From NCBI GenBank assembly GCA_964433995.1, contig CAYSTH010000001.1, positions 1 to 61,605 on the forward strand: a stretch of 61,605 nucleotides of DNA, in the 5' to 3' direction. Under the pieces are notes generated by a model. That model was not told the DNA's origin, searched no databases, and worked only from the letters and a program-made list of their open reading frames with translations. The stretch is from an uncultured Francisellaceae bacterium (GTDB lineage: Bacteria; Pseudomonadota; Gammaproteobacteria; Berkiellales; Berkiellaceae). Position 1 is the stretch's first letter, and every line of letters starts with the position of its first letter. Below are positions 27,945 through 52,845 of this stretch, one piece after another. The translations under genes and the position numbers were made by a program.

Positions 27945-28049
27945 AAAAAGCCGATAACCCGTAATAAATTACAGATAAAATGCATCTATTTCAAGTTAGA
28001 CAAATGGTACAATGCTCTTATTTGATTGTTTAATAAGAAGTTGCTTTTT

Positions 28050-36722: not shown

Positions 36723-38774
36723 TTATTCAACTTTGTCAGAATATAGAAAACATTTCACTACTTGCTTAGGCAAATTATAAATAGGTGGATAAATTTCTTT
36801 GCAAATAGGCATGACATGCGGACACCTAGGGTGAAAATGGCAGCCTCGTGGTGGCATGACATTAGAAGGAATTTCACCTGTTGGAGCATGAACCTTTTTA
36901 GGCCCTTCTAAACTTGGTACAGAAGCCAACAAAGCTTGCGTGTAGGGGTGTTTGGGGCTTTTTAAGATGGCTTCAGCAGGCCCCTGTTCGATAATTCGGC
37001 CCAAATACATCACCGCGATGGTATCTGCAAGATAAGAAACCACCGATATATTATGGGTAATAAACAAAAAGCTAATATTAAATTCATTCTGTAATGCCTG
37101 AAATAAATTTAATAACTGTGCTTGTACTGACACATCTAAGCTACTTGTGGGTTCATCACAAATAATAAATTTTGCACCAAGTGCTAATACCCTTGCGATG
37201 CAAATACGTTGCCTCTGACCACCCGAAAATTCATGCGGAAAACGATGCTTCATGTTTTTATTCAAGCCCACTTGCTCTAGCAATGCATCGATTCGCTCTT
37301 GTCGCTCGGCTGAATTTGTCCCTACTTTTAAAGCTATCATGCCTTCTTCTAAAATATCGGACACTCTCATACGCGGATCCATAGAAGAATAAGGATCTTG
37401 AAAAATCATTTGACAATCACTGCGCATTTTATGCAGTGTCCAAGGAAACACGCGTGTTAAATCCTTGCCCATGTAAATAACATTGCCATAAGAAGGTTTG
37501 ATGAGCTGCAAAATGGCTTTTCCTACTGTTGATTTTCCACACCCCGATTCGCCTACTAAAGCAACCGTTTCGCCTTCATGTATGGATAAACTGACCCCAT
37601 CTACTGCTTTAACATAACCTACTGTTCTTTTAAAAATGCCTTTTTGAATAGGGAAGAACACTTTTAAATGGTTAATATCAACCAAATTTACTTTTTCTTC
37701 TATATGATGCTCGTGATCCATTTCTTCAAAAATATGGTGCACAATTTCTTTTTTGCCCATTAAGCTCTGGGCAGTTTGTTGAACTGAATTTTTTAAATAT
37801 TCAGGTTGGTAATGCAAACAGCGAACTAAGCCACTTGCCATGTTTTGATAGGGATATAAATTAGGTAGCTGTTGCCCACAACGTTCTATTGCGACTTCAC
37901 AACGTCCATAAAACCGACACAGTTTAAATTCTTGGTTTAAACTGGGCACCTGCCCTGGGATAACCGACAAAGGTGCTCTTTTAACCGATCTTTCAGGCAA
38001 GGCTTTAAATAATTTTTGTGCATAAGGGTGCTTGGGAGAAAAAAAGAACTCTTTGGTTGATGCTTGTTCAACCATATGACCGGCATACATCACATGAATC
38101 ACATCGGCAAGCTCTCTTACCACGCCTAAATCATGGCTAATTAAAATAAGGGCCATTTTGTTTTTTTTAATAATGATTTTGAGTAACTCGATAATTTGAG
38201 CTTGCGTGGTGACGTCTAATGCCGTCGTTGGTTCATCTGCTATTAAAATACTAGGTGATTTGGCCAATGCCATGGCTATCATCACCCTTTGTTTTTGTCC
38301 GCCTGAAATCTGATGTGGATATTTTTTTAACATTAATTCGGGTTCTGAAATTAAGACATCTTTTAATAATTCAATTGCTTTATCACGATATTGTGCTTTA
38401 GATAATTTTTCTGAAATTGCCTCTATGATTTGTTCCCCAATAGTGAGCACAGGGTTCAGTGCCACTTGCGGATCTTGAAATATCATCGCGATATCATGAC
38501 GCCTAATGGTATGCATTTGTCTTTCGGAGTAATGTAATAAATTTTGACCTTTAAATTTAATTTCGGATTGCAAATCAATTCTGGCTTGGAGGGGTAATAA
38601 TCTTAATATCGACATCGCCGTAATAGACTTACCTGAGCCCGATTCTCCTACAATTGCCATAGTTTGAGTTTCGTGTAAAGTAAATGAAACCGTATTCACC
38701 GCTCTAATATAATCTGATTCTGTTTGAATATAAATTTTAAGATTATTGACTTCTAAAATAGGGTATTGACTCAT
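36723..38774 (-). CDS. yejF: Peptide ABC transporter, fused double ATPase (YejF-like)
   Basis: 683-aa ORF with two ABC cassettes (GESGSGKS / GESGCGKST, ISGGQKQRV / FSGGQRQRI) and Cys-rich oligopeptide-transporter C-terminal segments after each. Confidence 0.8.
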   Translation of the reverse strand: MSQYPILEVNNLKIYIQTESDYIRAVNTVSFTLHETQTMAIVGESGSGKSITAMSILRLLPLQARIDLQSEIKFKGQNLLHYSERQMHTIRRHDIAMIFQDPQVALNPVLTIGEQIIEAISEKLSKAQYRDKAIELLKDVLISEPELMLKKYPHQISGGQKQRVMIAMALAKSPSILIADEPTTALDVTTQAQIIELLKIIIKKNKMALILISHDLGVVRELADVIHVMYAGHMVEQASTKEFFFSPKHPYAQKLFKALPERSVKRAPLSVIPGQVPSLNQEFKLCRFYGRCEVAIERCGQQLPNLYPYQNMASGLVRCLHYQPEYLKNSVQQTAQSLMGKKEIVHHIFEEMDHEHHIEEKVNLVDINHLKVFFPIQKGIFKRTVGYVKAVDGVSLSIHEGETVALVGESGCGKSTVGKAILQLIKPSYGNVIYMGKDLTRVFPWTLHKMRSDCQMIFQDPYSSMDPRMRVSDILEEGMIALKVGTNSAERQERIDALLEQVGLNKNMKHRFPHEFSGGQRQRICIARVLALGAKFIICDEPTSSLDVSVQAQLLNLFQALQNEFNISFLFITHNISVVSYLADTIAVMYLGRIIEQGPAEAILKSPKHPYTQALLASVPSLEGPKKVHAPTGEIPSNVMPPRGCHFHPRCPHVMPICKEIYPPIYNLPKQVVKCFLYSDKVE

Positions 38775-40183
38775 TATTTTTGATCTCGCATTCTTGGATC
38801 AAAGGCATCTCTTAAGCTATCTGCAAAAATATTAGCAGACAGCACTAATGTGAACATAAAGATAAATGCCGCTGTTAAAGACCACCATACAACTGGAATA
38901 CGCGACATTTCTAAACGTGCGCCATTAATCATGCTGCCCCAACTATATGATGCCGGATCGACTCCCACACCCATATAAGATAATACCGCCTCAGCCAGTA
39001 CCAGGCCTGAAAAATCTAACGCGATAGAAATTAAAATAATATGCGACATATTAGGCAATAAATGTTTTAACATAATTTTAAAATGAGATACACCCAAACT
39101 TCTGGCCGCCAGCACATAATCTATTTCTCTTAGTTTTAATGCTTCGGCTCTGAGTAATCGACAAAGGCCCGTCCAGCTAGTGACCCCCAAAATAACACAC
39201 AATGCTAATAACCTTGCATCACTTCTTTCTGCCATTGAACGAAACCAATCGCTATGGCTTGCCATCAACACTTGCAAGCTTAAAACACTTGCTGCAATTA
39301 ACAATACACCTGGGATTGAGCTGAGAGTGGTATATAAATACTGAATAATATCATCAATCCATCCACGTAAATAGCCTGCCAAAATGCCTAAAAATATGGC
39401 AAAAGGCAGCATCACTAAAGTCGTTAAAGTGCCAATTAATACCCCTGTTCTGATACTTTTTATGGCTTCGTATAATACATCTTCACCTATTTTAGACGTG
39501 CCTAAAATATGATAATTAGGCAGTGACAAAGCAACAAAAGAAATAATAAACAAAATAAAGCATAATGTTGCCAAAAAAGTTTTTTGAGGAAAAACAGATT
39601 TATTTTTTGGTTTTTTGCTTATTTTATGAGCAATCCATTTAGGGGTGGAAAATAATAGGGTTAAAAATATCCCCATTACTGATGCTAAGCCTAGTTTTCT
39701 TAATATATCCCCTGTTTTCTCACTCTCATTTTTTAAATGATATCCTGAATACAATAATCTAGGGTAATCTCTTAACACTTCTCCATTTTTAGTGATATTT
39801 TCTTTATTAAAACCATACAATGCAAATGGTGCAGAATAAGAAACTTCTTGATGCTCGATGGCATCTTTAAGAAGAAGATCTAATAAACTCTTACTTTGTC
39901 CTGTACCGTATGTATTAGGATAATTTTTTGCCATAGGATGATTGGGTAATATTTCAACATGAATAGAATCGATGGTCGCAATTAAAATAAATAAACTTAA
40001 CAACATCATCACAACAATGTTTAAAGGACGTTGAATCACTTTTTTCCAAGGTTCTAACATGGTAGGATTGCGACGAATACTAAAGAAAAAACTCATTACC
40101 ATAAAGATTAACAAATACAATAAAATATCTGTCCATAATGGCACAATTTTTAAATAAGATAAGTCATTAAAAAAATCAATCAT
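38774..40183 (-). CDS. yejE: Peptide ABC transporter permease (YejE-like)
   Basis: 469-aa polytopic ORF with a BPD-transporter core and an N-terminal extension. Its stop and start abut yejF and yejB. Confidence 0.75.
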   Translation of the reverse strand: MIDFFNDLSYLKIVPLWTDILLYLLIFMVMSFFFSIRRNPTMLEPWKKVIQRPLNIVVMMLLSLFILIATIDSIHVEILPNHPMAKNYPNTYGTGQSKSLLDLLLKDAIEHQEVSYSAPFALYGFNKENITKNGEVLRDYPRLLYSGYHLKNESEKTGDILRKLGLASVMGIFLTLLFSTPKWIAHKISKKPKNKSVFPQKTFLATLCFILFIISFVALSLPNYHILGTSKIGEDVLYEAIKSIRTGVLIGTLTTLVMLPFAIFLGILAGYLRGWIDDIIQYLYTTLSSIPGVLLIAASVLSLQVLMASHSDWFRSMAERSDARLLALCVILGVTSWTGLCRLLRAEALKLREIDYVLAARSLGVSHFKIMLKHLLPNMSHIILISIALDFSGLVLAEAVLSYMGVGVDPASYSWGSMINGARLEMSRIPVVWWSLTAAFIFMFTLVLSANIFADSLRDAFDPRMRDQK

Positions 40184-41156
40184 TCAATTTTACTCTAGGA
40201 TCTACCAAGGTATAAGAAACATCTGTTAAGATTAAACCAATAATATATAAAACTGATCCTAAAAATACCATGGCCCTAACAATGGCAAAATCTTGTTGTT
40301 CAATAGCATCTATTGTGTAACTTCCTAATCCAGGTATACCAAAAAAAGATTCGGTTAATAAACTTCCTAAAAATAATAAAGGTAGCAATACGACAACCCC
40401 CGTTAAAATAGGAATTAAAGCATTTCTTAAAACATGCTTAAATAAAACGTACATTTCTGAAAAGCCTTTAGATAAGGCCGTTTTAACATAATCTTTGTTC
40501 ACTTCTTCTAAAAACAAAGTGCGATACCATCTTGCTCCAGAGCCTAATCCACCTATCACGCCTATTAAAACAGGCAAAATCAAAAATTTAATTAAACTCC
40601 ACCCGGCTTCATAACCTGAGACAGGAACTAATTTTAATACTTTAGCCAATACATATTGTCCACCAATAATATAAAATAAAGCAGAAATAGACATCATCAT
40701 GACACAAATAATCACACCCGTGGTATCAATATAAGTGCCTCTAAAAAAAACAAATAACAACGCAACGGTGATATCGACTAACAACCCAAGCAATAAAGCG
40801 GGTATGGCAATCGCTAATGAAGGCAACATACGTTGCTTTATATCATAACTAATATCTTGACCTGCATCGCTAGAACCAAATTCAAAAGCAAATAATTTAA
40901 TGGATTTTTGATAAAAAATAGTTTGTTTAAATTGTGCTATGCCTTCTTTTTGCTCATTAACAAATAAAGGTAAATTATAGCCGTGGGCTTTTTTCCAATT
41001 TTCGACTGCAGTTTGCGTCACATATTTTTGACCCAAATGAATTCTGGCAATATCATCGGGGGTGTTCACAATAAAAAATAAAGAGAACGTAAGAATATTT
41101 ACCCCAATTAAAATAGGAATAGCATAAAAAATTCGCCTAATGATATATGCTAACAT
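40176..41156 (-). CDS. yejB: Peptide ABC transporter permease (YejB-like)
   Basis: 326-aa ORF with an MLAYIIRRI.. start typical of DppB/OppB/YejB-type permeases. Confidence 0.75.
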   Translation of the reverse strand: MLAYIIRRIFYAIPILIGVNILTFSLFFIVNTPDDIARIHLGQKYVTQTAVENWKKAHGYNLPLFVNEQKEGIAQFKQTIFYQKSIKLFAFEFGSSDAGQDISYDIKQRMLPSLAIAIPALLLGLLVDITVALLFVFFRGTYIDTTGVIICVMMMSISALFYIIGGQYVLAKVLKLVPVSGYEAGWSLIKFLILPVLIGVIGGLGSGARWYRTLFLEEVNKDYVKTALSKGFSEMYVLFKHVLRNALIPILTGVVVLLPLLFLGSLLTESFFGIPGLGSYTIDAIEQQDFAIVRAMVFLGSVLYIIGLILTDVSYTLVDPRVKLND

Positions 41157-41204
41157 GTCACTCTTTTTTTCCTTGTTTTGTTACTCATTCACATTCCCCC
41201 GTTA

Positions 41205-41375
41205 ACCATTTTTTCTCATTTTAAGTACGGTATTTTATAAAGTTGGTAGGCGCTCTAAAATCCCCTCTACCAAAGCGAGCATGTTTTTTACCCTCATCCG
41301 GCCTTTCAGGCCACCTTCTCCCGCTACCACTCGCTAACGCTCCTTGCGGTAGAAGGGATAAAGCCACATCGTGCT
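41205..41375. repeat. GC-rich composite repeat (short copy) inside the yejA-yejB intergenic region
   Basis: Its reverse complement matches the ends of the element at ~46010-46290. Shared segments are ggctttRtcccttctaccgYaaggagc, gcgagtggYWRcgggagaaggtggcc.gaaggccgga and gctcgctttggtagagggga. Boundaries are approximate. Confidence 0.75.
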
Positions 41376-41404
41376 ACACTTTTATCAAATCTCAAATACA
41401 AACC

Positions 41405-43576
41405 TCATAACGTATATCGTCTTAAGGGTAAAAGCTGTTTTTTTCTATACATAAACCATGCAGGTAAACAACACCCTACTAATCCCATAAAGATTACCCC
41501 CAATGGCCAAAAATGAGCAGGGTTCCATTCTATTCTTTTTTCTGCCCTTAATATGGGATCGATTTTAATATATTTAATATTATTATGAGACATAGCGTTC
41601 GGTTTGCTAGGATATAACCACTGATGACTTAAAGCATACGATTTTGGGTGTAATCCCCAAATCCAGGGGGCATCTTCTCTGGCAATATCTAACATTTCAC
41701 CGAGTATTTTGGCACGCTCCTCACCATCGGGTAAATTACGCATTTTTTCATAAAGTGTATTGTAAGTAGGATTATCATAATTAGCAGGATTTTCACCACC
41801 TGACTTTACTTTGCCATTAGGGCCATAAAGTAAAAATAGAAAGTTTTCAGGATCGGGGTAATCAGCATTCCATCCCCAAAAAAATAACTGTGCATCACCC
41901 GTACGCATTTTATCTTGAAAGCGATTATATTGTGTGGCTCTTACAATAAGATCAATGCCTAATTTCGAAAATTGTTTACGAATCCATTCAAATTGTGCTT
42001 TGGTATCAGGGCCAGCGCCTTGCACTGCATCATAATACAAAATTAATGGTTTTCCAGTATTTTTATCCACTCCATGAGGATACCCTGCTTCTGATAATAA
42101 AGCTTTTGCCTCGCTTATGGGTTTTCTTTTTTTGTTTTGATCATACACAATAGGGTTTAAGTTAAGATTATTTGGAATAGATTGTGACATGCCGGGAGGT
42201 AATAAACTTTGTGCCGCCAAGCCTCTGCCATTTAAAAAAATAGTGATGTATTCTTCTATATCCATTGCTATAGAAATTGCTTGTCTTAATTTTTTATTTT
42301 TTTCACTATATCCACCCACAACTGGATCTAGCATATTGAATCCCCAATAAAATGTCGAGGGCAATATATCGGTTGTTAACTTGATTTTCTTTTCTAACAT
42401 AGGTTCAGTGAGTTGTAAGCCGCCTGCCGTACCATTCGCTTGAAATGCCTGATCAAAACTATCACTGCTTACACCAGAACTATCATAGTAACCTTGTAAA
42501 AATTTATTCCAATAAGGAATATCTTCTTTTTCTAAAATAAATTCTACTCTATCTAAAAAGGGTAAATTTTTCCCCATCAAGTCTTTAAACTCTATTTCTT
42601 CGCCTTGAGGATATTGTATTTTTCTAAATAATTTATTACGTTGTAACACCATTTGTGAATTGGGATCGTTTTTATCAAGATAATAAGGGCCTGTGCCAAC
42701 TGGAAACCAATCTAAGGTAATATCTTTTTCTACCATCGTTGGGTGACTATAAAATTTGATTGCTTCCCAAGGCATAGGGGCGAAAAATGGCATCGCAAGC
42801 CAATAAATAAATTGGGGATACTCGCCATTTATTGTGATGCTATAGGTATATTTATCTATTACTTTTGCACCTAAAATATCTATTTTATTTAAATCAACAT
42901 AAACAGGATGTTCTAAAGTTGCATTGACTTCGCTATATTTTTTTTGCAAAGTTTCGGATAATTCACCTAAACCAAGAATATGTTGCTGCATTAAGCCTAA
43001 AATTGGCGATTTTACTAAAGGATCGGCTAAACGTTTTATTTGAAAAACAAAATCTTCTGCTACTACTTCACGAGTACCTGCATTAGGAAAATCATTTAAA
43101 CTATCTAATTTTTCTACCCAATTATTGTTTAATTCATGATAAACATATTGATTTTTTTCCTGGTAGAAACAAGGATGCATTTGATAAAAAATATGCGGTC
43201 TAATTTTAATTTGATATTGTGTATAAACAATATGATTTTTATTTTCAGTCTGATTAAAATCTTTATCTAAATAAACGACTTTGGGCATTTGCTCAGCGAC
43301 TAAAGGCTCGAGTGTATAAGGCCTTTTAAAATAGTGATACTGGAGCGGCGGTTCATAAATTTGATTTAATATTACCCATTCATTGCTTGAATAAGAAACC
43401 GCTGGATCTAAATGTTTGGGACGTTCTGAAAACGAACTATAAAATGTATTTGCTTTAGGATCATCACTAGGATAAGGATCGTTCCACGGTTTATCCGAAC
43501 ACGAACATAAGCATCCTACCCCTATCAACATCAAATATTTTTTAAGTCGTTGTAACATCCGTTGTTTTATATCCAA
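41405..43576 (-). CDS. yejA: Peptide ABC transporter substrate-binding protein (family 5, YejA-like) with a C-terminal hydrophobic segment
   Basis: 723-aa ORF with an N-terminal signal/lipobox-like LIGVGCLCSC and an SBP_bac_5-type body. The C-terminal hydrophobic stretch FWPLGVIFMGLVGCCLPAWFMY is followed by basic residues. Confidence 0.7.
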   Translation of the reverse strand: MDIKQRMLQRLKKYLMLIGVGCLCSCSDKPWNDPYPSDDPKANTFYSSFSERPKHLDPAVSYSSNEWVILNQIYEPPLQYHYFKRPYTLEPLVAEQMPKVVYLDKDFNQTENKNHIVYTQYQIKIRPHIFYQMHPCFYQEKNQYVYHELNNNWVEKLDSLNDFPNAGTREVVAEDFVFQIKRLADPLVKSPILGLMQQHILGLGELSETLQKKYSEVNATLEHPVYVDLNKIDILGAKVIDKYTYSITINGEYPQFIYWLAMPFFAPMPWEAIKFYSHPTMVEKDITLDWFPVGTGPYYLDKNDPNSQMVLQRNKLFRKIQYPQGEEIEFKDLMGKNLPFLDRVEFILEKEDIPYWNKFLQGYYDSSGVSSDSFDQAFQANGTAGGLQLTEPMLEKKIKLTTDILPSTFYWGFNMLDPVVGGYSEKNKKLRQAISIAMDIEEYITIFLNGRGLAAQSLLPPGMSQSIPNNLNLNPIVYDQNKKRKPISEAKALLSEAGYPHGVDKNTGKPLILYYDAVQGAGPDTKAQFEWIRKQFSKLGIDLIVRATQYNRFQDKMRTGDAQLFFWGWNADYPDPENFLFLLYGPNGKVKSGGENPANYDNPTYNTLYEKMRNLPDGEERAKILGEMLDIAREDAPWIWGLHPKSYALSHQWLYPSKPNAMSHNNIKYIKIDPILRAEKRIEWNPAHFWPLGVIFMGLVGCCLPAWFMYRKKQLLPLRRYTL

Positions 43577-43729
43577 TATAAAATATTTGTTAGTAAACTT
43601 ATGTAAACTTTGATTAAGTTATCGTCCTACTACTCCATTTCCCCTGATTAGATTTAGGTATAGAATAGCAACCTAATTTAGTGTAGCTAAAGTATCGCTT
43701 ATAAATAGCCAAAATGAGGATCAAATACC

Positions 43730-44583: not shown

Positions 44584-45372
44584 ATGGATCTTGATCATAG
44601 TGAAGACATAAAGGCACGTGGCACTGATAGATTTCAGAAACAAATACGTGCCGAAAAAATAGAGCCTATCAAAATCTCTAAAAGACTAGATAAGGCTCTG
44701 AATCAGACTAAATACCGAAATACTGCGGCTAAAGAAGATACGGTTAAATATGATATAGCTGAAGGTCTTTCTGAAAAATTACATCATCTAACTTTAGAAG
44801 AAGAATATCGTCTAGTAGAACAGCGTGACTTTGAATTATATGGTCCTTATTATGAACCGTCTGATGATAGTAGCTCACACTTCTCTTTTGGTTCTAGTTC
44901 TGGTGAAGAGGATGAATTCAGTGGCGACAATCGACCTCACACTCAAGAGTTCTCTGATTCTGAAGAAAGTTATTATTCTCAGGAAACGTCTTACTCTGGA
45001 GAATTATCAGATTCTTCAGACCACTTTGATGGTTTTTGCTTTAACTCCACTCTCAAAGATAAAATTGTTGAAGAAAAACAAAACCAAAAACCTTGTGATT
45101 TAACTGATGAAAAAAATGTGCATAAAAATAAAAGTCACAAAAGCTATCTTTCACATCAAAAAGATAAACAAGAGTTGGTTAACAAAAAAGTGTTAGCTTT
45201 TGCATTTAGTGGGGTACACCGAAAAGGCGGGCATCACAGTAGATTTGTATATAATATTGGCCGTGAAGAAAAGCGTATTTTGGATACTTATCAACAATCA
45301 ATAAACCCTATTGAGATTGCAGAACAACCAAAAGAACGTGCTCGAGATATCAATAAAAGATGTAAAAAATAA
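44584..45372 (+). CDS. Hypothetical acidic Ser/Glu/Asp-rich, likely disordered protein
   Basis: 262-aa ORF starting 30 nt after fabI. It has a central low-complexity block (EPSDDSSSHFSFGSSSGEEDEFSGD..SDSEESYYSQETSYSGELSDSSD) and a basic C-terminus, and is followed by a strong hairpin terminator. Confidence 0.6.
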   Translation: MDLDHSEDIKARGTDRFQKQIRAEKIEPIKISKRLDKALNQTKYRNTAAKEDTVKYDIAEGLSEKLHHLTLEEEYRLVEQRDFELYGPYYEPSDDSSSHFSFGSSSGEEDEFSGDNRPHTQEFSDSEESYYSQETSYSGELSDSSDHFDGFCFNSTLKDKIVEEKQNQKPCDLTDEKNVHKNKSHKSYLSHQKDKQELVNKKVLAFAFSGVHRKGGHHSRFVYNIGREEKRILDTYQQSINPIEIAEQPKERARDINKRCKK

Positions 45373-45387
45373 TCGTTTATCCCTATT

Positions 45388-45418
45388 CCGCCCATACTGT
45401 AAAATATGGGCGGTTTTT
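45388..45418 (+). terminator. Rho-independent terminator
   Basis: 9-bp stem ccgcccata/tatgggcgg with an 8-nt loop and a T-run, 16 nt after the stop at 45372. Confidence 0.8.
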
Positions 45419-45426
45419 AATTTTAT

Positions 45427-45470
45427 AAATCCCCCCGCCGCTTCGCGTCGCCCCCCTTTTTCAAAGTGGG
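45427..45470. repeat. Short copy of the aaatccccccg...ccccctttt..caaag.ggg GC-rich element
   Basis: It shares the aaatccccccg start and the ccccc(c)ttt..caaagNggg core with the longer element at 50790-50880. Confidence 0.55.
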
Positions 45471-45505: not shown

Positions 45506-45844
45506 TTAATACAAAATGTTTGTTGTATTGGTCGTATAGCTCGCCAACCCGCTTAATCCCCCAATTAGCATAGATGCACCCATATTATGGGTTAAAGCAG
45601 GCATATTCTGCGTAAAACCGCCCCCTAACATGCCGCATGCAAGCCCTACCACTAAAGATGGATTTAACATTAAAGGCTGTGCGACAAAATTCAGCGTATT
45701 ACGTACTAACATACTTCCTAAAGCACCTGCAAAAGCACTGGCTGCAAAATCATAGGAGATTTTAGCGGCAAGCACAGTTAAGACTGCTTCCATGCCTAAA
45801 CCACCAGCCACTTGTGTTGAATCGTTTATTGAAATACTTTTCAT
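45506..45844 (-). CDS. Double-glycine-leader peptide precursor (class II microcin/bacteriocin-like), Gly-rich hydrophobic core
   Basis: 112-aa ORF with the leader MKSISINDSTQVAGG| and a ~97-aa hydrophobic core containing GxxxG-type motifs (GALGSML, GLACGMLGGG, LIGGLSGLA). Confidence 0.6.
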   Translation of the reverse strand: MKSISINDSTQVAGGLGMEAVLTVLAAKISYDFAASAFAGALGSMLVRNTLNFVAQPLMLNPSLVVGLACGMLGGGFTQNMPALTHNMGASMLIGGLSGLASYTTNTTNILY

Positions 45845-46009
45845 GATAATTGATGCCTTATATTAAAAATTAAAAGTAAATATTTAAAAAATATTGAGAG
45901 ATGATTATATAGAGCTGATTAACTTTATTTAATTTGTTAACTATGCCGGTAATCGATGGTAATCGACCGTTTATCGGGGGTTTTGTGCTACAAAGATACT
46001 CACTATTTG

Positions 46010-46290
46010 GCACAATATGGCTTTGTCCCTTCTACCGTAAGGAGCATAAGCGAGTGGCTACGGGAGAAGGTGGCCGAAGGCCGGACCTGCCAAGCCGAAG
46101 CTTTGAAGCGTAGGCTGGTGAGGGCAAAAAAATGATTTCACTTTTCCTCTGCCCTCACCCGTCTTGGCCGCTAACGCGATGGCCAATCCACCCTCTCCCA
46201 TGCGCTCGCTTGCTCGCTTTGGTAGAGGGGACTTTGATAGATCGTGCCAACTTTTGTAAAATACCCACTTAAGATGCGAGGGACTGTCAG
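46010..46290. repeat. GC-rich composite repeat (long copy)
   Basis: Same termini as the 41205-41375 element in inverted orientation, plus ~100 nt of extra internal GC-rich sequence. It accounts for the spurious ORF 46058-46306. Boundaries are approximate. Confidence 0.75.
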
Positions 46291-46369
46291 AGCGACAGGC
46301 TGACATGACATTTTTAAGATGTCACTCTGTAAAAAAAATTTTACAGTTTAAATCGAATACACAAAAATA

Positions 46370-46663
46370 TTAATTACTTGTCATATTCAATGTTAATTCT
46401 GGCATCTTTACTGATGTATCAACAACTGGCAAATGAACTCCTAGGTTTTTAGAACCTCTTTGAAGATCGTAAGCAATTTGAATACCCATTGCGATCATCA
46501 TTAAGGGTGCTGCATATTCCATAGGAATATTCAAAACAGGCATCTCACCACTTACTTTAATCAAACATTGTGAGCTATTGCTCACTACATCATATATAGA
46601 TAATAAACATTGGCTGTATCCACCAGAGACTTGTTCTAATTGAGTTGTTGTTATGGTCTTCAT
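46370..46663 (-). CDS. Double-glycine-leader peptide precursor (class II microcin/bacteriocin-like)
   Basis: 97-aa ORF with the textbook GG leader MKTITTTQLEQVSGG|YSQC... The core has two Cys and a hydrophobic stretch (AAPLMMIAMGIQIAY). Confidence 0.6.
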   Translation of the reverse strand: MKTITTTQLEQVSGGYSQCLLSIYDVVSNSSQCLIKVSGEMPVLNIPMEYAAPLMMIAMGIQIAYDLQRGSKNLGVHLPVVDTSVKMPELTLNMTSN

Positions 46664-46957
46664 CTTTGTAACCTCTAATCCAAGAATATGAAAAATATTA
46701 AGTTGTCATTTTATACAATCAACTTATGTAATTTAACTTATTAACCATACCGTTTATCTCCAAAATACAACCGTTCGTCATCGATTTAAACCGTTTGGTC
46801 CATTATTTTTATGATTTTGTCGATCTGTAAATACACATAACAGGCACACAGTGGGTACTTAGCTTAAACTTTTAGAGAGATCAAGCGATAACACAACTAC
46901 CTAATTTAGTTTAGGAAGTGTTCATTTTTATAGTTGTATACAATGTTGGAGATTATT

Positions 46958-47251
46958 ATGAAGTCTAAAATCCTAATGGCGATTTCTATTGCAGCAGCTC
47001 TTTCCGCTAACACTGCTTTTGCAGCTGATGAAATGATGGATAAATGCAAAGTCGTTAAAGATGGCAAAGGAATGATCAAAGCCAACAAAGCTGACTGTGC
47101 TGGTACAAGCCATGCTTGCGCTGGTCAAAACAAAGCTGGCGATGCTGAATCTTGGATCAAAGTGCCAAAAGGACAGTGTGAAAAAATTAATGCTGGTGAT
47201 TTTAGCGGCGTAAGCAAAGAAGTCAAAGAAAAAATCGAAGGCGCAAAATAA
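46958..47251 (+). CDS. bufA: DUF2282-type secreted Cys-containing precursor peptide (bufferin-type RiPP precursor)
   Basis: I trimmed to the ATG at 46958, which is preceded by GGAGA. The Sec signal is MKSKILMAISIAAALSANTAFA|A. The core is DKCKVV..KADCAGTSHACAGQNK..ESWIKVPKGQCEKI (4 Cys). Confidence 0.75.
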   Translation: MKSKILMAISIAAALSANTAFAADEMMDKCKVVKDGKGMIKANKADCAGTSHACAGQNKAGDAESWIKVPKGQCEKINAGDFSGVSKEVKEKIEGAK

Positions 47252-47280
47252 TCATTATTTAAAAATATTAATGGATTAAT

Positions 47281-48138
47281 ATGACTTTGAATCAACTAAT
47301 TGGTATAGGCCTTAGGCATCCTCATTATCATGAGGTTATCGATAGTCAACCTGGTATTGGTTGGTTCGAAGTTCACAGCGAAAACTTTTTTCATTTAGGC
47401 GGTCCTAGCCTTAATGCCCTTAAAACAATCCGAGCATCTTACCCAATTAGCTTACATGGCGTGGGTTTATCATTGGGATCTGCAGATAAATTAGATGTAG
47501 ATCATCTTAAAAAAATAAAAAAACTTATTCGAGAAATTGATCCTTTTTTAGTTTCTGAACATTTATCTTGGGGAAAAATCAATAACACATTTTTACCGGA
47601 CTTATTGCCTTTACCTTATACCCAAGAAAGCTTAAGTGTGATTTCTCAAAACATTCAACAAACTCAAGATTATCTGCAACGTGAAATATTAATAGAAAAC
47701 CCCTCTTCATACCTAGAATATCAAGATTCTGAACTTGATGAAGCCGACTTTATAGTTAAATTATGCCAAAAATCTGGCGCTAAACTTTTATTAGACATTA
47801 ATAATATTTTTGTTTCTGCTCACAATCATCAATGGGACGCTAAAAAATATATCAATAGCATTCCTGGCGATTTGGTAAAAGAGTTACATTTAGCTGGTCA
47901 TTCTCATAAAGCTTTATCTGAACAAAAAATAATTAAAGTCGACACGCATAATAATAAAGTATGCGAAGAAGTGTGGGAACTTTATATTTATAGCTTGACA
48001 CATTTTGGTTTAAAACACACTCTCATAGAATGGGATGCCGATATTCCTGAATTAAGTGTTTTATTAGAAGAAGCACAAAAAGCTAAAACATATTGTGAGT
48101 TAAACTTAGTGCAGCAGCAAGCTCATGCAAAAGCTTAA
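47281..48138 (+). CDS. bufB: DUF692 / MNIO (multinuclear non-heme iron oxidative) enzyme
   Basis: 285-aa ORF with GIGLRHPHY, GWFEVHSENFF, YPISLHGVGLSLGS, LVSEHLSW, ENPSSY and LLLDINN, which fit the UPF0276/DUF692 pattern. Confidence 0.85.
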   Translation: MTLNQLIGIGLRHPHYHEVIDSQPGIGWFEVHSENFFHLGGPSLNALKTIRASYPISLHGVGLSLGSADKLDVDHLKKIKKLIREIDPFLVSEHLSWGKINNTFLPDLLPLPYTQESLSVISQNIQQTQDYLQREILIENPSSYLEYQDSELDEADFIVKLCQKSGAKLLLDINNIFVSAHNHQWDAKKYINSIPGDLVKELHLAGHSHKALSEQKIIKVDTHNNKVCEEVWELYIYSLTHFGLKHTLIEWDADIPELSVLLEEAQKAKTYCELNLVQQQAHAKA

Positions 48139-48892
48139 AGATATTCAACATGATTTTACTCATAGTTTATTTCAAACCGACAAGATACCTGTTTCTGATT
48201 TTATTGCGTCTGATTATGCTAGTGAGCGTCTGAATATTTACAGACAAACGATTATACAAAATTTACGCCAAGCCCTTGCCATTACCTACCCTGGTATTTG
48301 GCACTTACTCGGTGATGAATGTGCCGATAGCGTGGCTTATGCTTATATAAATAATATAAACAATTTTCCCATTTCTGGGTGTCTAGATGATTGGGGTATA
48401 AGTTTTGCTGAATTTTTAGAACAACAGCCAGAATTAATAACATTACCTTATCTTAAAGACTATGCTCACTATGAATGGCTAAAACATTTGGCTTATGGGC
48501 AAGCTGATAGCGATTATTTAACTTATGATAAGTTAACAACATTATCTGAAAATGAATTAACCAATGCTATTTTTTATTTTCACCCTACTGTTTATTTTAT
48601 GCAGTCTGTTTTTCCATTGGATAATATTTTAAATATTATTGAAAATCCTGATAGCGAAAAATTACATTTAACCAAACAAAACACTTATGCTCTTATTGCT
48701 AGACCTGAAAACAATGTGATAACTTATTGGCTTTCTGAAGATTATTATGTATTTTTTGATGATTTAAAAAAAGGATTATCGTTTGGATTATCTATAGAAA
48801 AAGCAGAAAAAAAATATTCTGATTTTAACTTATCGGAAATAATAACTTTTTTAATCGAAAATAAGCTTATTTCTCACATTTCTTATGCCTAA
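48125..48892 (+). CDS. bufC: DUF2063-family partner protein of the MNIO enzyme
   Basis: 255-aa ORF overlapping the DUF692 gene by 14 nt. The N-terminal segment (ERLNIYRQTIIQNLRQALAITYPGIWHLLGDE) fits the DUF2063 pattern. Confidence 0.75.
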   Translation: MQKLKDIQHDFTHSLFQTDKIPVSDFIASDYASERLNIYRQTIIQNLRQALAITYPGIWHLLGDECADSVAYAYINNINNFPISGCLDDWGISFAEFLEQQPELITLPYLKDYAHYEWLKHLAYGQADSDYLTYDKLTTLSENELTNAIFYFHPTVYFMQSVFPLDNILNIIENPDSEKLHLTKQNTYALIARPENNVITYWLSEDYYVFFDDLKKGLSFGLSIEKAEKKYSDFNLSEIITFLIENKLISHISYA

Positions 48893-49049
48893 ATTTAAAG
48901 CGTGTACTTAAACATCTAAAAAATACGATTACCTACACTTATGAACACTGTTATCTCTTGCTAGATTCATTTCATCGGTTATTTGTTGTCATTCCTTGAC
49001 CTGCATAGTAGACTGCCTTTTTTTAACTTTAAATACACAGGATATTTCA

Positions 49050-49856
49050 ATGGATAACCCAATTCAAACAGAACGAAATGATCAATTGCGCTCTGCGGCA
49101 GAAGCAGGTATTACGACTGAAATAATCACCCAACTCCAAAATGGGGCAAATATAGAAGCAATGGACCACGATGGTTGGACTGCACTCATGTTCGCCTGTT
49201 TTCATAACCACGCGCCCGTTGTCGAATTATTACTTCAAAAAAAAGCTAACCTAGAACACAAATCTCACAACAATTGTACGCCACTCATCGTTGCTTGTAT
49301 GAAAGGTTGGACTGAAATTGTTAAACTCTTAGTCCAAAACAATGTCAACATTGAGGAAAAAGATAATGAGGGTATGACACCACTTATGTGGGCTTCTTAT
49401 TATGGCCATTATGATATAGTTGATCTTTTAATTCAAAAAAATGCCAATACACTAGCCACCAATCATCTCGGCGAGACTGCACAAGATATTGCCTTGTTTA
49501 AACGGAATGATACATTTTATCAATTATTCCGTACATTAACAGAACAAGAGCGCAAAAATTTTGGAAGTAAAAGTATAAGAAATATCCAGCTTTATACGAG
49601 ATTTATAAAATGGTCTGAAGAGAACCCCCAAAAAAAACAAGATACTTCTGATTTAACACTACAAATACCTACCGTTATTTTTTCTGAAGAACCCAAGCAC
49701 AAAAGTTGTAGTGACATGATAATTGAAGGCTTTATTGCTGCAAAAGAAGGGGTTTTTAATCTTTTTAATACAAAAAGAAAGAGAGAAAACAAAGAGGAAA
49801 ATGAACAAAATCAAGATGGATATGGAAATCCTAACAAAAAGGCAAAGCTAAACTAA
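49050..49856 (+). CDS. Ankyrin-repeat protein with a C-terminal bipartite-NLS-like tail
   Basis: I trimmed from a TTG to the ATG at 49050 (AGGA lies 8 nt upstream). ANK repeats are present (DGWTALMFACFHNHAPVVELLLQKKANLE, NCTPLIVACMKGWTEIVKLLVQNNVNIE, GMTPLMWASYYGHYDIVDLLIQKNAN). The tail is KRKRENKEENEQNQDGYGNPNKKAKLN. Confidence 0.85.
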   Translation: MDNPIQTERNDQLRSAAEAGITTEIITQLQNGANIEAMDHDGWTALMFACFHNHAPVVELLLQKKANLEHKSHNNCTPLIVACMKGWTEIVKLLVQNNVNIEEKDNEGMTPLMWASYYGHYDIVDLLIQKNANTLATNHLGETAQDIALFKRNDTFYQLFRTLTEQERKNFGSKSIRNIQLYTRFIKWSEENPQKKQDTSDLTLQIPTVIFSEEPKHKSCSDMIIEGFIAAKEGVFNLFNTKRKRENKEENEQNQDGYGNPNKKAKLN

Positions 49857-49949
49857 CGCCTGTTCTTCAATATTTTTTTTGCGTTAACTCAGGTATTACA
49901 CTGCGCCTTACGGCGCAGGCGTTAACATAGAGTCAAAAAAAGGTGACAT

Positions 49950-50768
49950 TTAAGAATTAAATTTATTTCGCCGAATTATTTCAGGAGATACATCCATTCT
50001 TTCTTCTGAATGAGCATTTGCTGCAACCATATTTATTTGAGAAAAAACGAGAGGTGCTGTATGTAATGGAAGTTCAGCTGCTTCAAAAACTTTCATTCCA
50101 ATGCGCTCTGGATCAAATATATTAAAAAATGTTTCTAATTGCTCTGGTGTTAATGCATTAAGCAACAAAGATATTATTTCTTTTTTAGATTTTTTGCCAT
50201 AAACTGACCTAAGGGCTGAATATCCATACGCATGGCCTGCGTCTTGATCTACCCCTTTTTGAAGCAGTAATTTAACTATTTCTAATTTATCATTCTGAGC
50301 AGCTTGAATCAGTGGTGTCAAACCAAAAAGATTTTTGGCATTAATATCTACACCGACTTCTTCGATTAGGCCAGTCACAACCATAACATGACCTAGTCGA
50401 ACATGTTCAATGAGCAAATCTTCGAGCGCATATTGCTCTATTTCTTTACGTCTTTGCTCAAGCACGGGATCAAGCTTAAAGCAGGGAGCTTTTGTAAGAT
50501 GTTCATCTAAAATAAAATTTGTGTTTTGATTTTTAACACCTTTTTCGATTAATAAATCGACAATTTTCTGGTGTTGATTCCAATGAGCTAACTGGAAAGC
50601 TGTTAACCCTAAAACATTATGCGCGTTGATATCAGCTTTAGCTTCTTTAATCAGTCCTTTTACTGTCATAAAATGACCATCTCTAGCAAATGCTGTAAAG
50701 AATTCGGTAAGCTGTTTTTCTTCTAATGTTTTATATTCTCGAGCGACAGTTGTAGCAGGTGCGTCCAT
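49950..50768 (-). CDS. Ankyrin-repeat protein
   Basis: 272-aa ORF with ANK-like units (GLTAFQLAHWNQHQKIVDLLIEKGV, GLTPLIQAAQNDKLEIVKLLLQKGVDQD). It has no NLS-like tail. Confidence 0.8.
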   Translation of the reverse strand: MDAPATTVAREYKTLEEKQLTEFFTAFARDGHFMTVKGLIKEAKADINAHNVLGLTAFQLAHWNQHQKIVDLLIEKGVKNQNTNFILDEHLTKAPCFKLDPVLEQRRKEIEQYALEDLLIEHVRLGHVMVVTGLIEEVGVDINAKNLFGLTPLIQAAQNDKLEIVKLLLQKGVDQDAGHAYGYSALRSVYGKKSKKEIISLLLNALTPEQLETFFNIFDPERIGMKVFEAAELPLHTAPLVFSQINMVAANAHSEERMDVSPEIIRRNKFNS

Positions 50769-50789: not shown

Positions 50790-50880
50790 AAATCCCCCCG
50801 TCTGGCTACGCTGAAGCTACGCCAAGACGGCCCCCTTTGGCATCAAAGGGGCGCGCGAGCAAAACGAGCGGGGGGATTTA
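50790..50880. repeat. GC-rich palindromic element with terminal inverted repeats aaatccccccg / cggggggattt
   Basis: It has internal sub-palindromes (cccctttg gcat caaagggg; cgtctgg...ccaagacg). It fills the gap between the ppiD stop (50878-50880) and the start of the ankyrin gene. Confidence 0.75.
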
Positions 50881-52845
50881 TACTTTTTCTTTATCCGTTT
50901 CAGGCTTGCTATTTTCTAACAAATTTTTGACATTCGATGTTTTGAGTACATGCTCTATCAGCAAGTTAAATTCAACCTGACCTAAAGAACTAGCATAGCT
51001 TTTCATAAAGGCAGGATTTTGAATTTGGCTATCATCTTTGCCATCGATAATATTGCTTGCAGTCACTAAAGCAAAGTCACCATTAGATAACTCAGCTGTT
51101 TTGGCTTGTAATTTATTTTTATTTTTGTCTGTTGGCTTAGGTAAGCTAAATGCTGTTTGTGCTATAGCAGGATCTATGCCCATTTTCGCACCAGGGAAAT
51201 AGCGTGTTTCTTCTACTTCTTTGCGTACTAGTCCTTTTTTAGACTGAACAGACAGATTATTTGCCTGAGCGACTTGTTGTAAAGTTTTGCCGGCCTCTAA
51301 CTCAGCTGTCATTTTTGAGGCTAATGCTTTAGCCTGCTTTTGTGCTTCTTCAGAAGTTAAATAGGTCACAATATCGTTTTTAACCGTTTCTAATGGCTTT
51401 TGTTTCGCAGGAATATGTTGATTCACCCGAACAACGACATATGTTTTGTCATCTAATTTAATAAGCTCACTGTTATGCTTATCTTGCAAAACTTCAGCAC
51501 TAAACGCGGCTTTGAGCAACTTAGGATTTTTAAATAGCTCTTTAGGATCTTCTTGAGAAAATACATCGGTCTGAGCAATCTTCAACTTAAATTTATCGGC
51601 AATAGGCTGAAGTGAATCAGGTTGTTCATAAGCCAAGGTAGATATTTCATCTCCAACTTGACTGATTTGTTCATCAGACTTATGTTCAATAAATTGTGTT
51701 TTTAATTGTTCCTTGACTAAATTAAAAGACTCATGAGATTCGGGAAATTTTTCAAGCAATTTAATAATGTGTATACCAAATTGTGTACGCACTAAACCTG
51801 ATAATTCACCCTGTTTATTCATTGCAAAAACCGCTTTTTCGAATTCAGGAACCATTTCACCTTTACCAAAGGTTCCTAACTCTCCACCATTTTTACCCGA
51901 ACCTGTATCATCAGAATAAGTTTGAGCCAGTTTTTTGAAATCTTCGCCTGCTTTTAATTTAGCAAGTAGCTCTTTGGCTTTTTGTTCTACTTTTTGTGTA
52001 TCTTCTTTGCTTGCATCTTCAGGCAGAGCCAATAATATATGTGCTGCTTTGACTCTTTCTGGTTGAGTATACTGCGCAATATTTTTTTGATAAAAAGCTT
52101 TTAGATCTTCTTCTGTTGGTTTAATTTCTTTTTTGAAATCGGCAGTATTTAAGACAAGATAATCGAACGACGCTTTTTCGTCTGTCACAAAATCTTCAGC
52201 ATGCGCCTTGTAGTAAGCATCAATGCTTTCTGGCGTAATTTTAATCTCTTTAGTAAATCGAGAAGCTGGGATGACAACGTAATCAACATCTCTTTTTTGC
52301 TCAATAAACTTAATAAGCGTTTTGGCTTCTGGCGCTAGTGAAAAATTACTATATACAATGCCTTTCTGAAGTTGGTTAACCAAGATATTTGTTCGGATTT
52401 CAGATTTGAAAGCCTCTAAAGTGTAACCCATTCCTTTAAGAAATTGATTTAACCTTTCTGGTGAGTAAACACCCTCTTCTTGAAATTCGGGTATTGTTTT
52501 CAAAAGTTGATCTAACGTGCTGTTACTCACACGTAAGCCCATGTCTTCGGTTTTGTATTGAAGCGCTTTTACTTCGATAAGATTTTGAAGGGCAACTTGT
52601 TTTAAATAGTTGACGTCAATTTCGAGTTCGGGATTTTGCATGGCTTGTTGACGCTGTAAACGCTCTACCAGCGTATCTAGCTCAGCCATCGTGATTTTAT
52701 CGCCATTTACTTCTGCAGCTGCTTGACCCTTAGGATTTAGGCCTAGCCTATCTCCCACGCCCCACATCACAAAAGTAATGGCAATCATGCCCAAAATTAT
52801 CCAAGCAACCCAACCTTGTGCCTTTTCACGAATATTTTGCAACAT
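50878..52845 (-). CDS. ppiD: Periplasmic chaperone / peptidyl-prolyl isomerase PpiD
   Basis: I trimmed from a TTG to the ATG at 52845 (MLQNIREKAQGWVAWIILGMIAITF, an N-terminal TM anchor; GAGGGA SD). It has a parvulin-like block (VKAAHILL...FGIHIIKL) and the conserved lon-hupB-ppiD neighbourhood. Confidence 0.88.
   Translation of the reverse strand: MLQNIREKAQGWVAWIILGMIAITFVMWGVGDRLGLNPKGQAAAEVNGDKITMAELDTLVERLQRQQAMQNPELEIDVNYLKQVALQNLIEVKALQYKTEDMGLRVSNSTLDQLLKTIPEFQEEGVYSPERLNQFLKGMGYTLEAFKSEIRTNILVNQLQKGIVYSNFSLAPEAKTLIKFIEQKRDVDYVVIPASRFTKEIKITPESIDAYYKAHAEDFVTDEKASFDYLVLNTADFKKEIKPTEEDLKAFYQKNIAQYTQPERVKAAHILLALPEDASKEDTQKVEQKAKELLAKLKAGEDFKKLAQTYSDDTGSGKNGGELGTFGKGEMVPEFEKAVFAMNKQGELSGLVRTQFGIHIIKLLEKFPESHESFNLVKEQLKTQFIEHKSDEQISQVGDEISTLAYEQPDSLQPIADKFKLKIAQTDVFSQEDPKELFKNPKLLKAAFSAEVLQDKHNSELIKLDDKTYVVVRVNQHIPAKQKPLETVKNDIVTYLTSEEAQKQAKALASKMTAELEAGKTLQQVAQANNLSVQSKKGLVRKEVEETRYFPGAKMGIDPAIAQTAFSLPKPTDKNKNKLQAKTAELSNGDFALVTASNIIDGKDDSQIQNPAFMKSYASSLGQVEFNLLIEHVLKTSNVKNLLENSKPETDKEKV

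What the first reader, a model, noticed from the sequence alone, without database searches (positions are those of the whole stretch)
45506..46663. Two orphan double-glycine-leader peptide genes (microcin/class II bacteriocin-like) flanking a GC-rich repeat
Both small minus-strand ORFs begin with a canonical GG-type leader, MKSISINDSTQVAGG| and MKTITTTQLEQVSGG|. The first has a ~97-aa Gly-rich hydrophobic core with GxxxG motifs, reminiscent of colicin V or class IIa microcins. The second has an ~82-aa core with two Cys and a hydrophobic helix. No C39-peptidase ABC exporter, HlyD partner or obvious immunity gene lies within this 61-kb window. The two genes are separated by a ~280-bp GC-rich repeat. 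Their upstream regions share sequence (aatttRttaacttat..ccgtttatc), which suggests a duplicated cassette. Secreted GG-leader peptides are unexpected in a genome that otherwise looks host-adapted. They could be bacteriocins, signalling peptides, or substrates of another export route.
Basis: partly seen in the sequence, partly recalled or inferred. Interest (0 to 1): 0.7.

Follow-up and report, generated by a model that had tools for sequence, protein, structure and literature searches.

The report
Co-regulated double-glycine-leader peptide gene pair
Two small neighbouring genes in an uncultured, ankyrin-rich gammaproteobacterium are real, conserved genes for peptides with a bacteriocin-type export leader and share a distinctive promoter, so they look like new microcin-like secreted peptides whose exporter, immunity gene and activity are still unknown.

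Summary
Two minus-strand ORFs start with 15-residue double-glycine leaders: pep1 (45506-45844, 112 aa) and pep2 (46370-46663, 97 aa).

- **Real genes.** Both are conserved in order (pep2 then pep1) in six related lineages. dN/dS is 0.08-0.33 at dS 0.4-2.4. Each forms a small, lineage-restricted family.
- **Modular leader.** Only the leaders resemble each other. In relatives the same leader sits on two further core families, and a pep1-type leader is fused to a pep2-like core.
- **Shared promoter.** It has two 10-nt direct repeats (GAYRAACGGT) 21 bp apart, a TTAAY-N2-RTTAA palindrome over a weak -35, a 17-nt spacer and TAYAAT.
- **GC-rich repeat.** It is an incidental, dispersed palindromic element inserted between the genes. 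In one relative the genes are 2 nt apart.
- **What is missing.** No C39-peptidase ABC exporter, HlyD partner, immunity-like ORF or regulator lies in the window or in seven related loci.

Best reading: new class II microcin-like or Cdz-like peptides exported by a PCAT-type exporter and controlled by an unidentified activator. Export and activity are inferred. This is a new member of a known kind, of moderate interest.

The parts
46370..46663 (-). pep2: 97-aa precursor. 15-aa GG leader (46619-46663) plus an 82-aa core (9.0 kDa, pI 4.95) with two invariant Cys (C19, C33) and one hydrophobic helix (about residues 48-68).
   Evidence: TIGR01847 15.6 bits against a 15.7 cut-off, orthologue P0009 16.3
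45506..45844 (-). pep1: 112-aa precursor. 15-aa GG leader (45800-45844; invariant Ser at -7) plus a 97-aa hydrophobic Gly/Ala-rich core (9.9 kDa, GRAVY 0.77) with three small-residue/glycine zippers and an invariant polar C-terminus, ASYTTNTT.
46708..46799 (-). pep2 promoter module. Direct repeats ACCAAACGGT (46790-46799), GACGAACGGT (46770-46779) and GATAAACGGT (46749-46758); TGGTTAATAAGTTAAAT (46731-46747, holds the -35 TTAAAT); 17-nt spacer; -10 TAAAAT (46708-46713).
45904..45975 (-). pep1 promoter module. Repeats GATAAACGGT (45966-45975) and GATTACCGGC (45945-45954); TAGTTAACAAATTAAAT (45927-45943); 17-nt spacer; -10 TATAAT (45904-45909).
46010..46279 (.). GC-rich palindromic dispersed repeat (REP/MITE-like) inserted between pep2 and pep1. 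The inner ~125 bp (46086-46210) is absent from the second copy. Not part of the gene system.
   Evidence: Logan contigs L001-L003 end inside it
41214..41374 (.). Second, shorter, inverted copy of the same palindromic element, in the intergenic region of the ABC importer operon.
45388..45413 (.). GC-rich hairpin between the convergent pep1 and the 262-aa ORF (44584-45372). Likely a bidirectional terminator.

Best explanation
pep2 and pep1 are a conserved, co-regulated pair of precursor peptides with double-glycine leaders. Two steps are shown: they are real genes under purifying selection, and they share a modular 15-residue leader and a conserved promoter module with the other GG-leader genes of this clade. 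The rest is inferred. An unidentified activator binds the two 10-nt direct repeats (21-bp phasing, the geometry of LytTR-type sites) and switches on promoters that have a weak -35. [quoted passage not shown] These act on membranes of competing bacteria as class II microcin-like or Cdz-like toxins. pep1 would be the glycine-zipper membrane-inserting component and pep2 a possibly disulfide-bonded partner, perhaps working as a two-component pair.
For: - Conservation: homologues at 53-100% identity in six lineages, always in the order pep2 then pep1. dN/dS is 0.08-0.33 with dS 0.4-2.4.
- Leader match: both fit the published microcin signal regex, far above chance. The leaders have the same length and pattern as the MccV signal MRTLTLNELDSVSGG. 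TIGR01847 aligns 15 of 15 positions, with scores at the cut-off for pep2 (15.6), P0009 (16.3) and L011 p3 (16.4).
- Leader modularity: only residues 1-17 of pep1 and pep2 align. L011 carries two more GG-leader ORFs with unrelated cores behind the same promoter, plus a decayed pep1 paralogue. L073 carries a pep1-type leader (68% identity, hhalign E 1.9e-6) on a pep2-like core (E 3.5e-8).
- Promoter: 11 promoters show an invariant layout, surrounded by unconserved intergenic DNA. L012 and L073 carry variants. The -35 is weak and the standard sigma-70 scan does not call these promoters. LytTR sites are two 9-11-nt repeats with 11-13-nt spacers (PMC4847170).
- Pairing: the two genes are 2 nt apart in L014.
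- Core features: 9-10 kDa cores, glycine zippers and a polar C-terminus in pep1 fit the Cdz-like criteria (PMC5380434).
Against: - No C39-peptidase ABC transporter, HlyD protein or TolC was seen in the 61.6-kb window or in seven related loci.
- No conserved small membrane ORF that could give immunity lies next to the genes. Verified microcin immunity genes are normally adjacent.
- pep1 has an invariant Ser at -7, where GG leaders usually have a hydrophobic residue, and it gets no TIGR01847 hit.
- Window pep2 scores 0.1 bit below the TIGR01847 cut-off.
- The cores have no homology to any known bacteriocin.
- The structure models are uninformative (pLDDT 49 and 43).
- No regulator was found, and there are no expression or activity data.
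Confidence: 0.6

Rival explanations
1. Toxin plus immunity: pep2 is the only exported bacteriocin, and pep1, a hydrophobic 112-aa protein encoded right after it, is its inner-membrane immunity protein. pep1's N-terminal 'GG' would then be a relic or coincidence.
For: The gene order (bacteriocin then a small hydrophobic protein, 2 nt apart in L014) is the classic bacteriocin-immunity layout. Immunity proteins are small membrane proteins encoded next to the microcin. pep1 has several hydrophobic segments, an atypical Ser at -7 and no TIGR01847 hit. No other immunity candidate exists in the locus.
Against: The GG and the hydrophobic residue at -4 are invariant in pep1. Its leader is near-identical to that of L011 p3 (MKQISINDLEQISGG), which passes TIGR01847. 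The pep1-type leader is found on a pep2-like core in L073. L073 has a pep2-like gene with no pep1 within the ~400 bp of sequence held downstream of it, where a hairpin and a convergent gene follow. pep1 has its own copy of the inducible promoter in five lineages. Its hydrophobic segments are Gly/Ala-rich and interrupted by polar residues and Pro, so they are not clean transmembrane helices.
Confidence: 0.15
2. Exported GG-leader peptides with a non-antibacterial role. They could be signalling or pheromone-like factors, surface or aggregation proteins, or factors acting on the eukaryotic host of an intracellular bacterium.
For: No immunity gene is adjacent. The genome context is rich in ankyrin-repeat proteins, six in the window, which suggests a eukaryote-associated lifestyle. 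The direct-repeat promoter has the geometry of LytTR-type response-regulator sites, which I recall as typical of quorum-sensing peptide regulons. PCAT substrates include signalling peptides (abstract of PMC7018657).
Against: At 82-97 aa the cores are far longer than the peptide pheromones I know of. Multiple unrelated cores, leader shuffling and a decaying paralogue match what I know of fast-evolving toxin repertoires. Glycine zippers are typical of membrane-damaging toxins.
Confidence: 0.15
3. Not exported at all: these are small inner-membrane proteins of unknown housekeeping function, and their N-termini resemble GG leaders by chance or by common descent.
For: No exporter was found nearby. 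Both have hydrophobic segments. The leader HMM scores are at or below threshold.
Against: The regex match is far above chance. The same 15-residue module sits on four unrelated cores and recombines between them. The GG at positions 14-15 is invariant in both families.
Confidence: 0.07
4. Substrates of the neighbouring bufferin machinery: the MNIO enzyme BufB with BufC modifies the two invariant Cys of pep2, making it a new GG-leader MNIO RiPP.
For: pep2 is divergently adjacent to bufA1-bufB-bufC in five lineages. From memory, MNIO enzymes act on Cys residues. pep2 has two invariant Cys.
Against: The operon has its own canonical DUF2282 precursor, BufA1. In L014 and L073 the GG genes lie elsewhere with no bufferin operon beside them, and they keep the Cys. 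There is no shared promoter module on the buf side. pep1 and the L011 p3/p4 cores show no such Cys pattern.
Confidence: 0.03

Closest known systems
Class II (IIa) microcins of Gram-negative bacteria, e.g. microcin V / CvaC
   Same: The leader is 15 residues and ends in GG, with the same spacing as MRTLTLNELDSVSGG. The cores are unmodified-looking and about 9-10 kDa. pep1 has a Gly/Ala-rich hydrophobic core and pep2 has two Cys that could form a disulfide. The host is Gram-negative. Both match the published signal regex.
   Different: There is no adjacent PCAT/MFP and no adjacent immunity gene. The cores have no sequence homology to any known microcin. The promoters carry a direct-repeat activator-type module. 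The host is an uncultured ankyrin-rich gammaproteobacterium, not an enterobacterium.
Cdz-like glycine-zipper two-protein bacteriocins (CdzC/CdzD of Caulobacter; PMC5380434)
   Same: There are two adjacent small proteins of 60-151 aa with leaders ending in GG. pep1 has glycine-zipper motifs flanked by Pro or charged residues and a short polar C-terminus. Cdz-like genes are reported as common in gammaproteobacteria.
   Different: No CdzAB-type type I secretion genes or CdzI-like immunity gene lie within 10 kb. pep2 has no glycine zipper. No sequence homology was tested or detected, and contact-dependence is unknown.
Quorum-sensing bacteriocin regulons of Gram-positive bacteria (pln, blp, com) with class IIb two-peptide bacteriocins
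   Same: Several GG-leader peptide genes with unrelated cores each sit behind a copy of one promoter. That promoter carries two direct repeats of about 10 nt with about 21-bp phasing upstream of a weak -35, which is the general geometry of LytTR-type sites. As I recall, the pln, blp and com bacteriocin promoters are built this way. The genes come as a pair.
   Different: The host is Gram-negative. The peptides are two to three times longer. No LytTR regulator, kinase, pheromone gene, transporter or immunity gene was seen nearby. The repeat sequence (GAYRAACGGT) is unlike the LytTR boxes I recall. An extra TTAAY-N2-RTTAA palindrome overlaps the -35.

Membership tests
Double-glycine-leader (PCAT-substrate) peptides, TIGR01847 bacteriocin_sig | N-terminal leader of about 15-18 aa ending in GG/GA/GS, directly after Met-Lys/Arg | tested here: met
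   Both ORFs fit. GG at positions 14-15 is invariant in both families. The regex matches only these two ORFs in the window; simulated mean 0.025.
Double-glycine-leader (PCAT-substrate) peptides, TIGR01847 bacteriocin_sig | Hydrophobic residues at -4, -7 and -12 of the leader (positions from my own knowledge of GG leaders) | tested here: inconclusive
   pep2 has V(-4), L(-7), I(-12), so it fits. pep1 has V/I(-4) and I/L(-12) but an invariant Ser at -7.
Double-glycine-leader (PCAT-substrate) peptides, TIGR01847 bacteriocin_sig | HMM score at or above the curated cut-off (15.7 bits) | tested here: inconclusive
   Window pep2 scores 15.6. Orthologue P0009 (16.3) and L011 p3 (16.4) pass. Other pep2 orthologues score 13.6-15.4, and two orthologues plus the pep1 family get no hit.
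Double-glycine-leader (PCAT-substrate) peptides, TIGR01847 bacteriocin_sig | A cognate C39-peptidase ABC transporter in the genome, and cleavage after GG | not testable with these tools
   None is in the window or in loci L004, L006, L008, L011, L012, L014, L073. The rest of the genome is not available.
Class II microcins | Small (about 5-10 kDa) core from a Gram-negative bacterium with a GG signal | tested here: met
   The cores are 8,978 and 9,902 Da. Definition from PMC12219008.
Class II microcins | Adjacent small membrane immunity gene | tested here: not met
   No conserved small ORF lies between or beside the genes. Only the promoter is conserved in the intergenic DNA. Criterion.
Class II microcins | PCAT and MFP genes in the same cluster | tested here: not met
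   Pfam scans of the window ORFs of at least 150 aa and the gene tables of seven related loci show none.
Class II microcins | Antibacterial activity of the secreted core | not testable with these tools
   This needs the CvaAB secretion and self-inhibition assay.
Cdz-like glycine-zipper bacteriocins | 60-151 aa, leader ending G[GAS], one or two glycine zippers not interrupted by Pro or charge, short polar C-terminus | tested here: inconclusive
   pep1 meets all four: G67xxxG71xxxG75, A35xxxA39xxxG43, S91xxxG95xxxG99, and C-terminus ASYTTNTTNILY. pep2 has no zipper. Criteria.
Cdz-like glycine-zipper bacteriocins | CdzAB-type type I secretion genes within about 10 kb | tested here: not met
LytTR-regulated bacteriocin promoters | Two 9-11-nt repeats separated by 11-13 nt upstream of the promoter | tested here: met
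   Two 10-nt repeats with an 11-nt spacer occur in 11 promoters with fixed geometry, plus a variant in L073. Definition from PMC4847170.
LytTR-regulated bacteriocin promoters | A LytTR-domain response regulator that binds them | not testable with these tools
   No Response_reg or LytTR hit among the window ORFs. The rest of the genome is unavailable.
Bufferin (BufA, DUF2282) precursors | DUF2282 domain with a Sec signal peptide | tested here: not met
   pep1 and pep2 get no DUF2282 hit. The true BufA1 is the neighbouring ORF 46934-47251.

The most novel reading that the evidence does not exclude
This uncultured, ankyrin-rich (probably protist-associated) gammaproteobacterial clade may run a Gram-positive-style inducible peptide regulon. 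Several GG-leader genes with shuffled leaders and unrelated cores would be driven by one direct-repeat activator, with exporter, regulator and immunity encoded at a distance. The pep2/pep1 pair would be a new two-component glycine-zipper toxin used against co-resident bacteria, or even against host or organelle membranes.
Probability: 0.15. Interest if true: 0.7.

Novelty: new member of a known kind. Interest (0 to 1): 0.42.

Why it matters
If confirmed, these would be two new core families (four counting the relatives' extra genes) of double-glycine-leader secreted peptides in a lineage where none are described. They show that microcin-like genes can be kept for long evolutionary times away from their exporter and immunity genes. 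The conserved promoter module is a concrete handle: scanning a complete genome for it should reveal the rest of the regulon, including transporter, regulator and immunity genes. The finding also warns genome-mining pipelines that require an adjacent PCAT that they would miss such genes.

Tried and rejected
- **Distant homologues.** A profile of pep1 against 1.84 billion representatives found only its own cluster. The pep2 profile search added only the RBC015 orthologue. Pfam, NCBIfam and PDB sequence searches gave nothing beyond the leader.
- **Structure.** AlphaFold2 models were too poor (pLDDT 49 and 43) to justify fold searches.
- **Regulon and exporter by promoter scan.** Scanning JGI metagenome contigs for the promoter pattern gave 57 hits. 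None had the upstream repeats or a GG ORF, so all look like chance, and the 2.25-Mb relative is not in that collection. Whether a PCAT exists elsewhere therefore remains open.
- **Taxonomy.** PDB hits for ClpP and FabI carry no organism information. No paper mentions the RBC015 MAG. The organism stays 'uncultured gammaproteobacterium'.
- **Prepilin-type leader for pep1.** Rejected: the Glu at +5 in the window copy is Gln in all homologues.
- **Functional link to the GC-rich repeat.** Rejected: it is an insertion absent from relatives.
- **Functional link to the bufferin operon.** Judged unlikely: the adjacency is lost in L014 and L073.

Full report
**Observation.** The two minus-strand ORFs exist as described.
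- pep1 is 45506-45844 (112 aa) and begins MKSISINDSTQVAGG.
- pep2 is 46370-46663 (97 aa) and begins MKTITTTQLEQVSGG.
- Both fit the double-glycine signal regex used in the largest published class II microcin screen ([KEQI]x[IL]x9G[GAS]; PMC12219008). They are the only two ORFs of 50-150 aa in the six-frame translation of the window that do. Simulated sequences average 0.025 matches, and 0 of 200 reach two.
- The leaders have the length and spacing of the microcin V signal MRTLTLNELDSVSGG.
- NCBIfam TIGR01847 (bacteriocin_sig) aligns all 15 positions of pep2 at 15.6 bits against a 15.7 cut-off. A pep2 orthologue (16.3) and a further GG peptide of a relative (16.4) pass. pep1 gets no hit.

**They are real genes.**
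- pep1 has seven homologues at 60-97% identity. pep2 has seven at 53-100%.
- Pairwise dN/dS is 0.08-0.33 while dS is 0.4-2.4 (one pair saturated), so both are under purifying selection.
- An exhaustive profile search of 1.84 billion representative proteins finds only pep1's own cluster. Only one species-level genome of GTDB carries it, the MAG 'uncultured Gammaproteobacteria bacterium RBC015'.
- The families are therefore restricted to one uncultured clade. The taxonomy could not be refined.

**Context.**
- In five lineages (the window, L004, L008, L011 and L012+L006) the order is bufC-bufB-bufA1 (divergent), then pep2, pep1, then a convergent hypothetical gene and fabI.
- In a sixth lineage (L014, a 2.25-Mb JGI contig) the bufferin operon is absent from this site. 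There pep2 and pep1 are separated by 2 nt and share a single promoter.
- The pair itself is the conserved unit. The bufferin adjacency is synteny rather than function.
- No Peptidase_C39 ABC transporter, HlyD protein, response regulator or conserved small membrane ORF occurs in the window or in the held parts of the seven related loci. All window ORFs of at least 150 aa were scanned, except ClpX and ClpP, which were identified otherwise.

**The leader is a module.**
- Profile comparison aligns pep1 and pep2 over residues 1-17 only.
- Relative L011 has two additional GG-leader ORFs with unrelated hydrophobic cores (MKQISINDLEQISGG..., MKPLLINEIAHISGG...). It also has a decayed pep1 paralogue.
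- Relative L073 has a 92-aa ORF whose first 19 residues are 68% identical to pep1's leader (E 1.9e-6). Its core is homologous to pep2 and keeps both Cys (E 3.5e-8).
- This exchange argues that pep1's N-terminus works as a leader despite its invariant Ser at -7. One leader on several unrelated, shuffled cores is, to my knowledge, typical of PCAT-dependent peptide repertoires.

**The shared upstream sequence is a promoter module.**
- Eleven promoters from six lineages have an invariant layout. Variants occur in L012 and L073.
- The layout is GAYRARYGGY, 11 nt, GAYNANYGGY, then TRGTTAAY-N2-RTTAAAY, 17 nt, TAYAAT. The TRGTTAAY-N2-RTTAAAY part is a near-palindrome TTAAY-N2-RTTAA that contains a weak -35, TTAAAY.
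- The surrounding intergenic DNA is not conserved.
- The window's pep2 promoter and L073 carry a third repeat 20 bp further upstream.
- A standard sigma-70 scan does not call these promoters because the -35 is poor. That fits dependence on an activator.
- Two 10-nt repeats with an 11-nt spacer match the general geometry of LytTR-type response-regulator sites (two 9-11-nt repeats, 11-13-nt spacers; PMC4847170). As I recall, such regulators control GG-leader bacteriocin regulons in Gram-positive bacteria.
- This is an analogy only. No regulator was found, and the repeat sequence is unlike the LytTR boxes I recall.

**The GC-rich repeat.**
- The element at about 46010-46279 folds into a long hairpin (z = -6.5).
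- A shorter inverted copy at 41214-41374 lacks the inner ~125 bp. A related copy occurs in the RBC015 MAG.
- Public short-read assemblies of the same organism break inside it.
- Relatives have unrelated intergenic DNA, or none, at this position.
- It is an incidental REP/MITE-like insertion.

**The cores.**
- pep1's mature part would be 97 aa (9.9 kDa, GRAVY 0.77) and 25% Gly plus Ala. It has three small-residue/glycine zippers and an invariant polar tail, ASYTTNTT. It meets the four descriptive criteria for Cdz-like glycine-zipper bacteriocins (PMC5380434).
- pep2's mature part would be 82 aa (9.0 kDa, pI 4.95). It has two invariant Cys 14 residues apart, an invariant NIPxEYA motif, one hydrophobic helix and a variable tail.
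- AlphaFold2 models were low-confidence and helical, so no fold search was run.

**Interpretation.**
- Best-supported reading (about 0.6): a conserved, co-regulated pair of PCAT-type exported peptides, functionally like class II microcins or Cdz-like two-protein bacteriocins. The exporter, regulator and any immunity gene would be encoded elsewhere.
- Shown: the genes are real, the leader is modular, the promoter is shared and the pairing is conserved.
- Inferred: cleavage after Gly15, export by a PCAT, activator control and membrane-targeting antibacterial activity.
- Main counter-evidence: no transporter and no adjacent immunity gene, and pep1's Ser at -7.
- Rivals: pep1 as the immunity protein of pep2 (0.15; weakened by the leader exchange and by L073, which shows no pep1 in the short stretch held downstream of its pep2-like gene); exported peptides with a non-antibacterial role (0.15); unexported small membrane proteins (0.07); substrates of the neighbouring MNIO enzyme (0.03).

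**Verdict.**
- These are new sequence families of a known kind, with an unusual dispersed organisation and a well-defined promoter signature.
- Interest is moderate. Widespread microcin-like genes in Gram-negative bacteria are already proposed (PMC12219008), and the decisive facts (exporter, cleavage, activity) could not be tested here.

Noticed in passing
window 46934-48892 (+): A complete bufferin-type RiPP operon lies divergently next to pep2. It comprises BufA1 (DUF2282; gene callers start it at 46958), the MNIO maturase BufB (47281-48138; NF050167 370 bits, above its 310 cut-off) and BufC/HvfC (48125-48892). It is conserved at this site in five lineages but absent from it in L014 and L073.
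   Followed up: partly
L011 543-827, 841-1092, about 1113-1290: A relative carries two further GG-leader ORFs (94 and 83 aa) with unrelated hydrophobic cores behind the same promoter module. It also carries a decayed pep1 paralogue (59% identity over 56 aa, with in-frame stops).
   Followed up: partly
L073 20589-20867: A 92-aa ORF is chimeric, with a pep1-type leader on a pep2-like two-Cys core. Its promoter variant has three GAYRANCGGK repeats. This is evidence of leader/core recombination in the clade.
   Followed up: yes
window 45424-45461 and 50845-50882: A second short GC-rich element (TATAAATCCCCCCGCCGCTTCGCGTCGCCCCCCTTTTT) occurs as an inverted pair, 71% complementary. One copy lies just downstream of pep1. 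Similar C-run/G-run hairpins occupy intergenic DNA of relatives (L008, L011, L014).
   Followed up: no
L014 16936-17278: A frameshifted transposase-like gene remnant (MTHSFRAHYFHLIWSTKNR...), which to my eye looks IS200/RAYT-like but was not scanned, lies just upstream of the pep2-pep1 operon in the 2.25-Mb relative. It may relate to the REP-like palindromic elements of the clade.
   Followed up: no
window 36723-43576 (-): An ABC importer is conserved next to fabI in all lineages. It has a family-5 solute-binding protein (723 aa), two permeases and a fused double ATPase with oligo_HPY domains. From memory it resembles the peptide/microcin C importer YejABEF. No link to the GG peptides was tested.
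   Followed up: no
window 44584-45372 (+): A 262-aa acidic, Ser/Lys-rich ORF with no family hit is convergent with pep1. A hypothetical gene is conserved at this position in relatives, but its length varies widely (91-348 aa).
   Followed up: no
window 3043-4080, 25341-29366, 33419-36595, 48996-50768: Six ankyrin-repeat proteins lie in 61 kb, alongside a PTP-like phytase/phosphatase (16745-17665). This suggests a eukaryote-associated lifestyle.
   Followed up: no
window 43650-43686 and 46878-46914: A 37-nt direct repeat (73% identity, core CCTAATTTAGT) lies upstream of both fabI and bufA1. It may be chance or a shared regulatory site.
   Followed up: no
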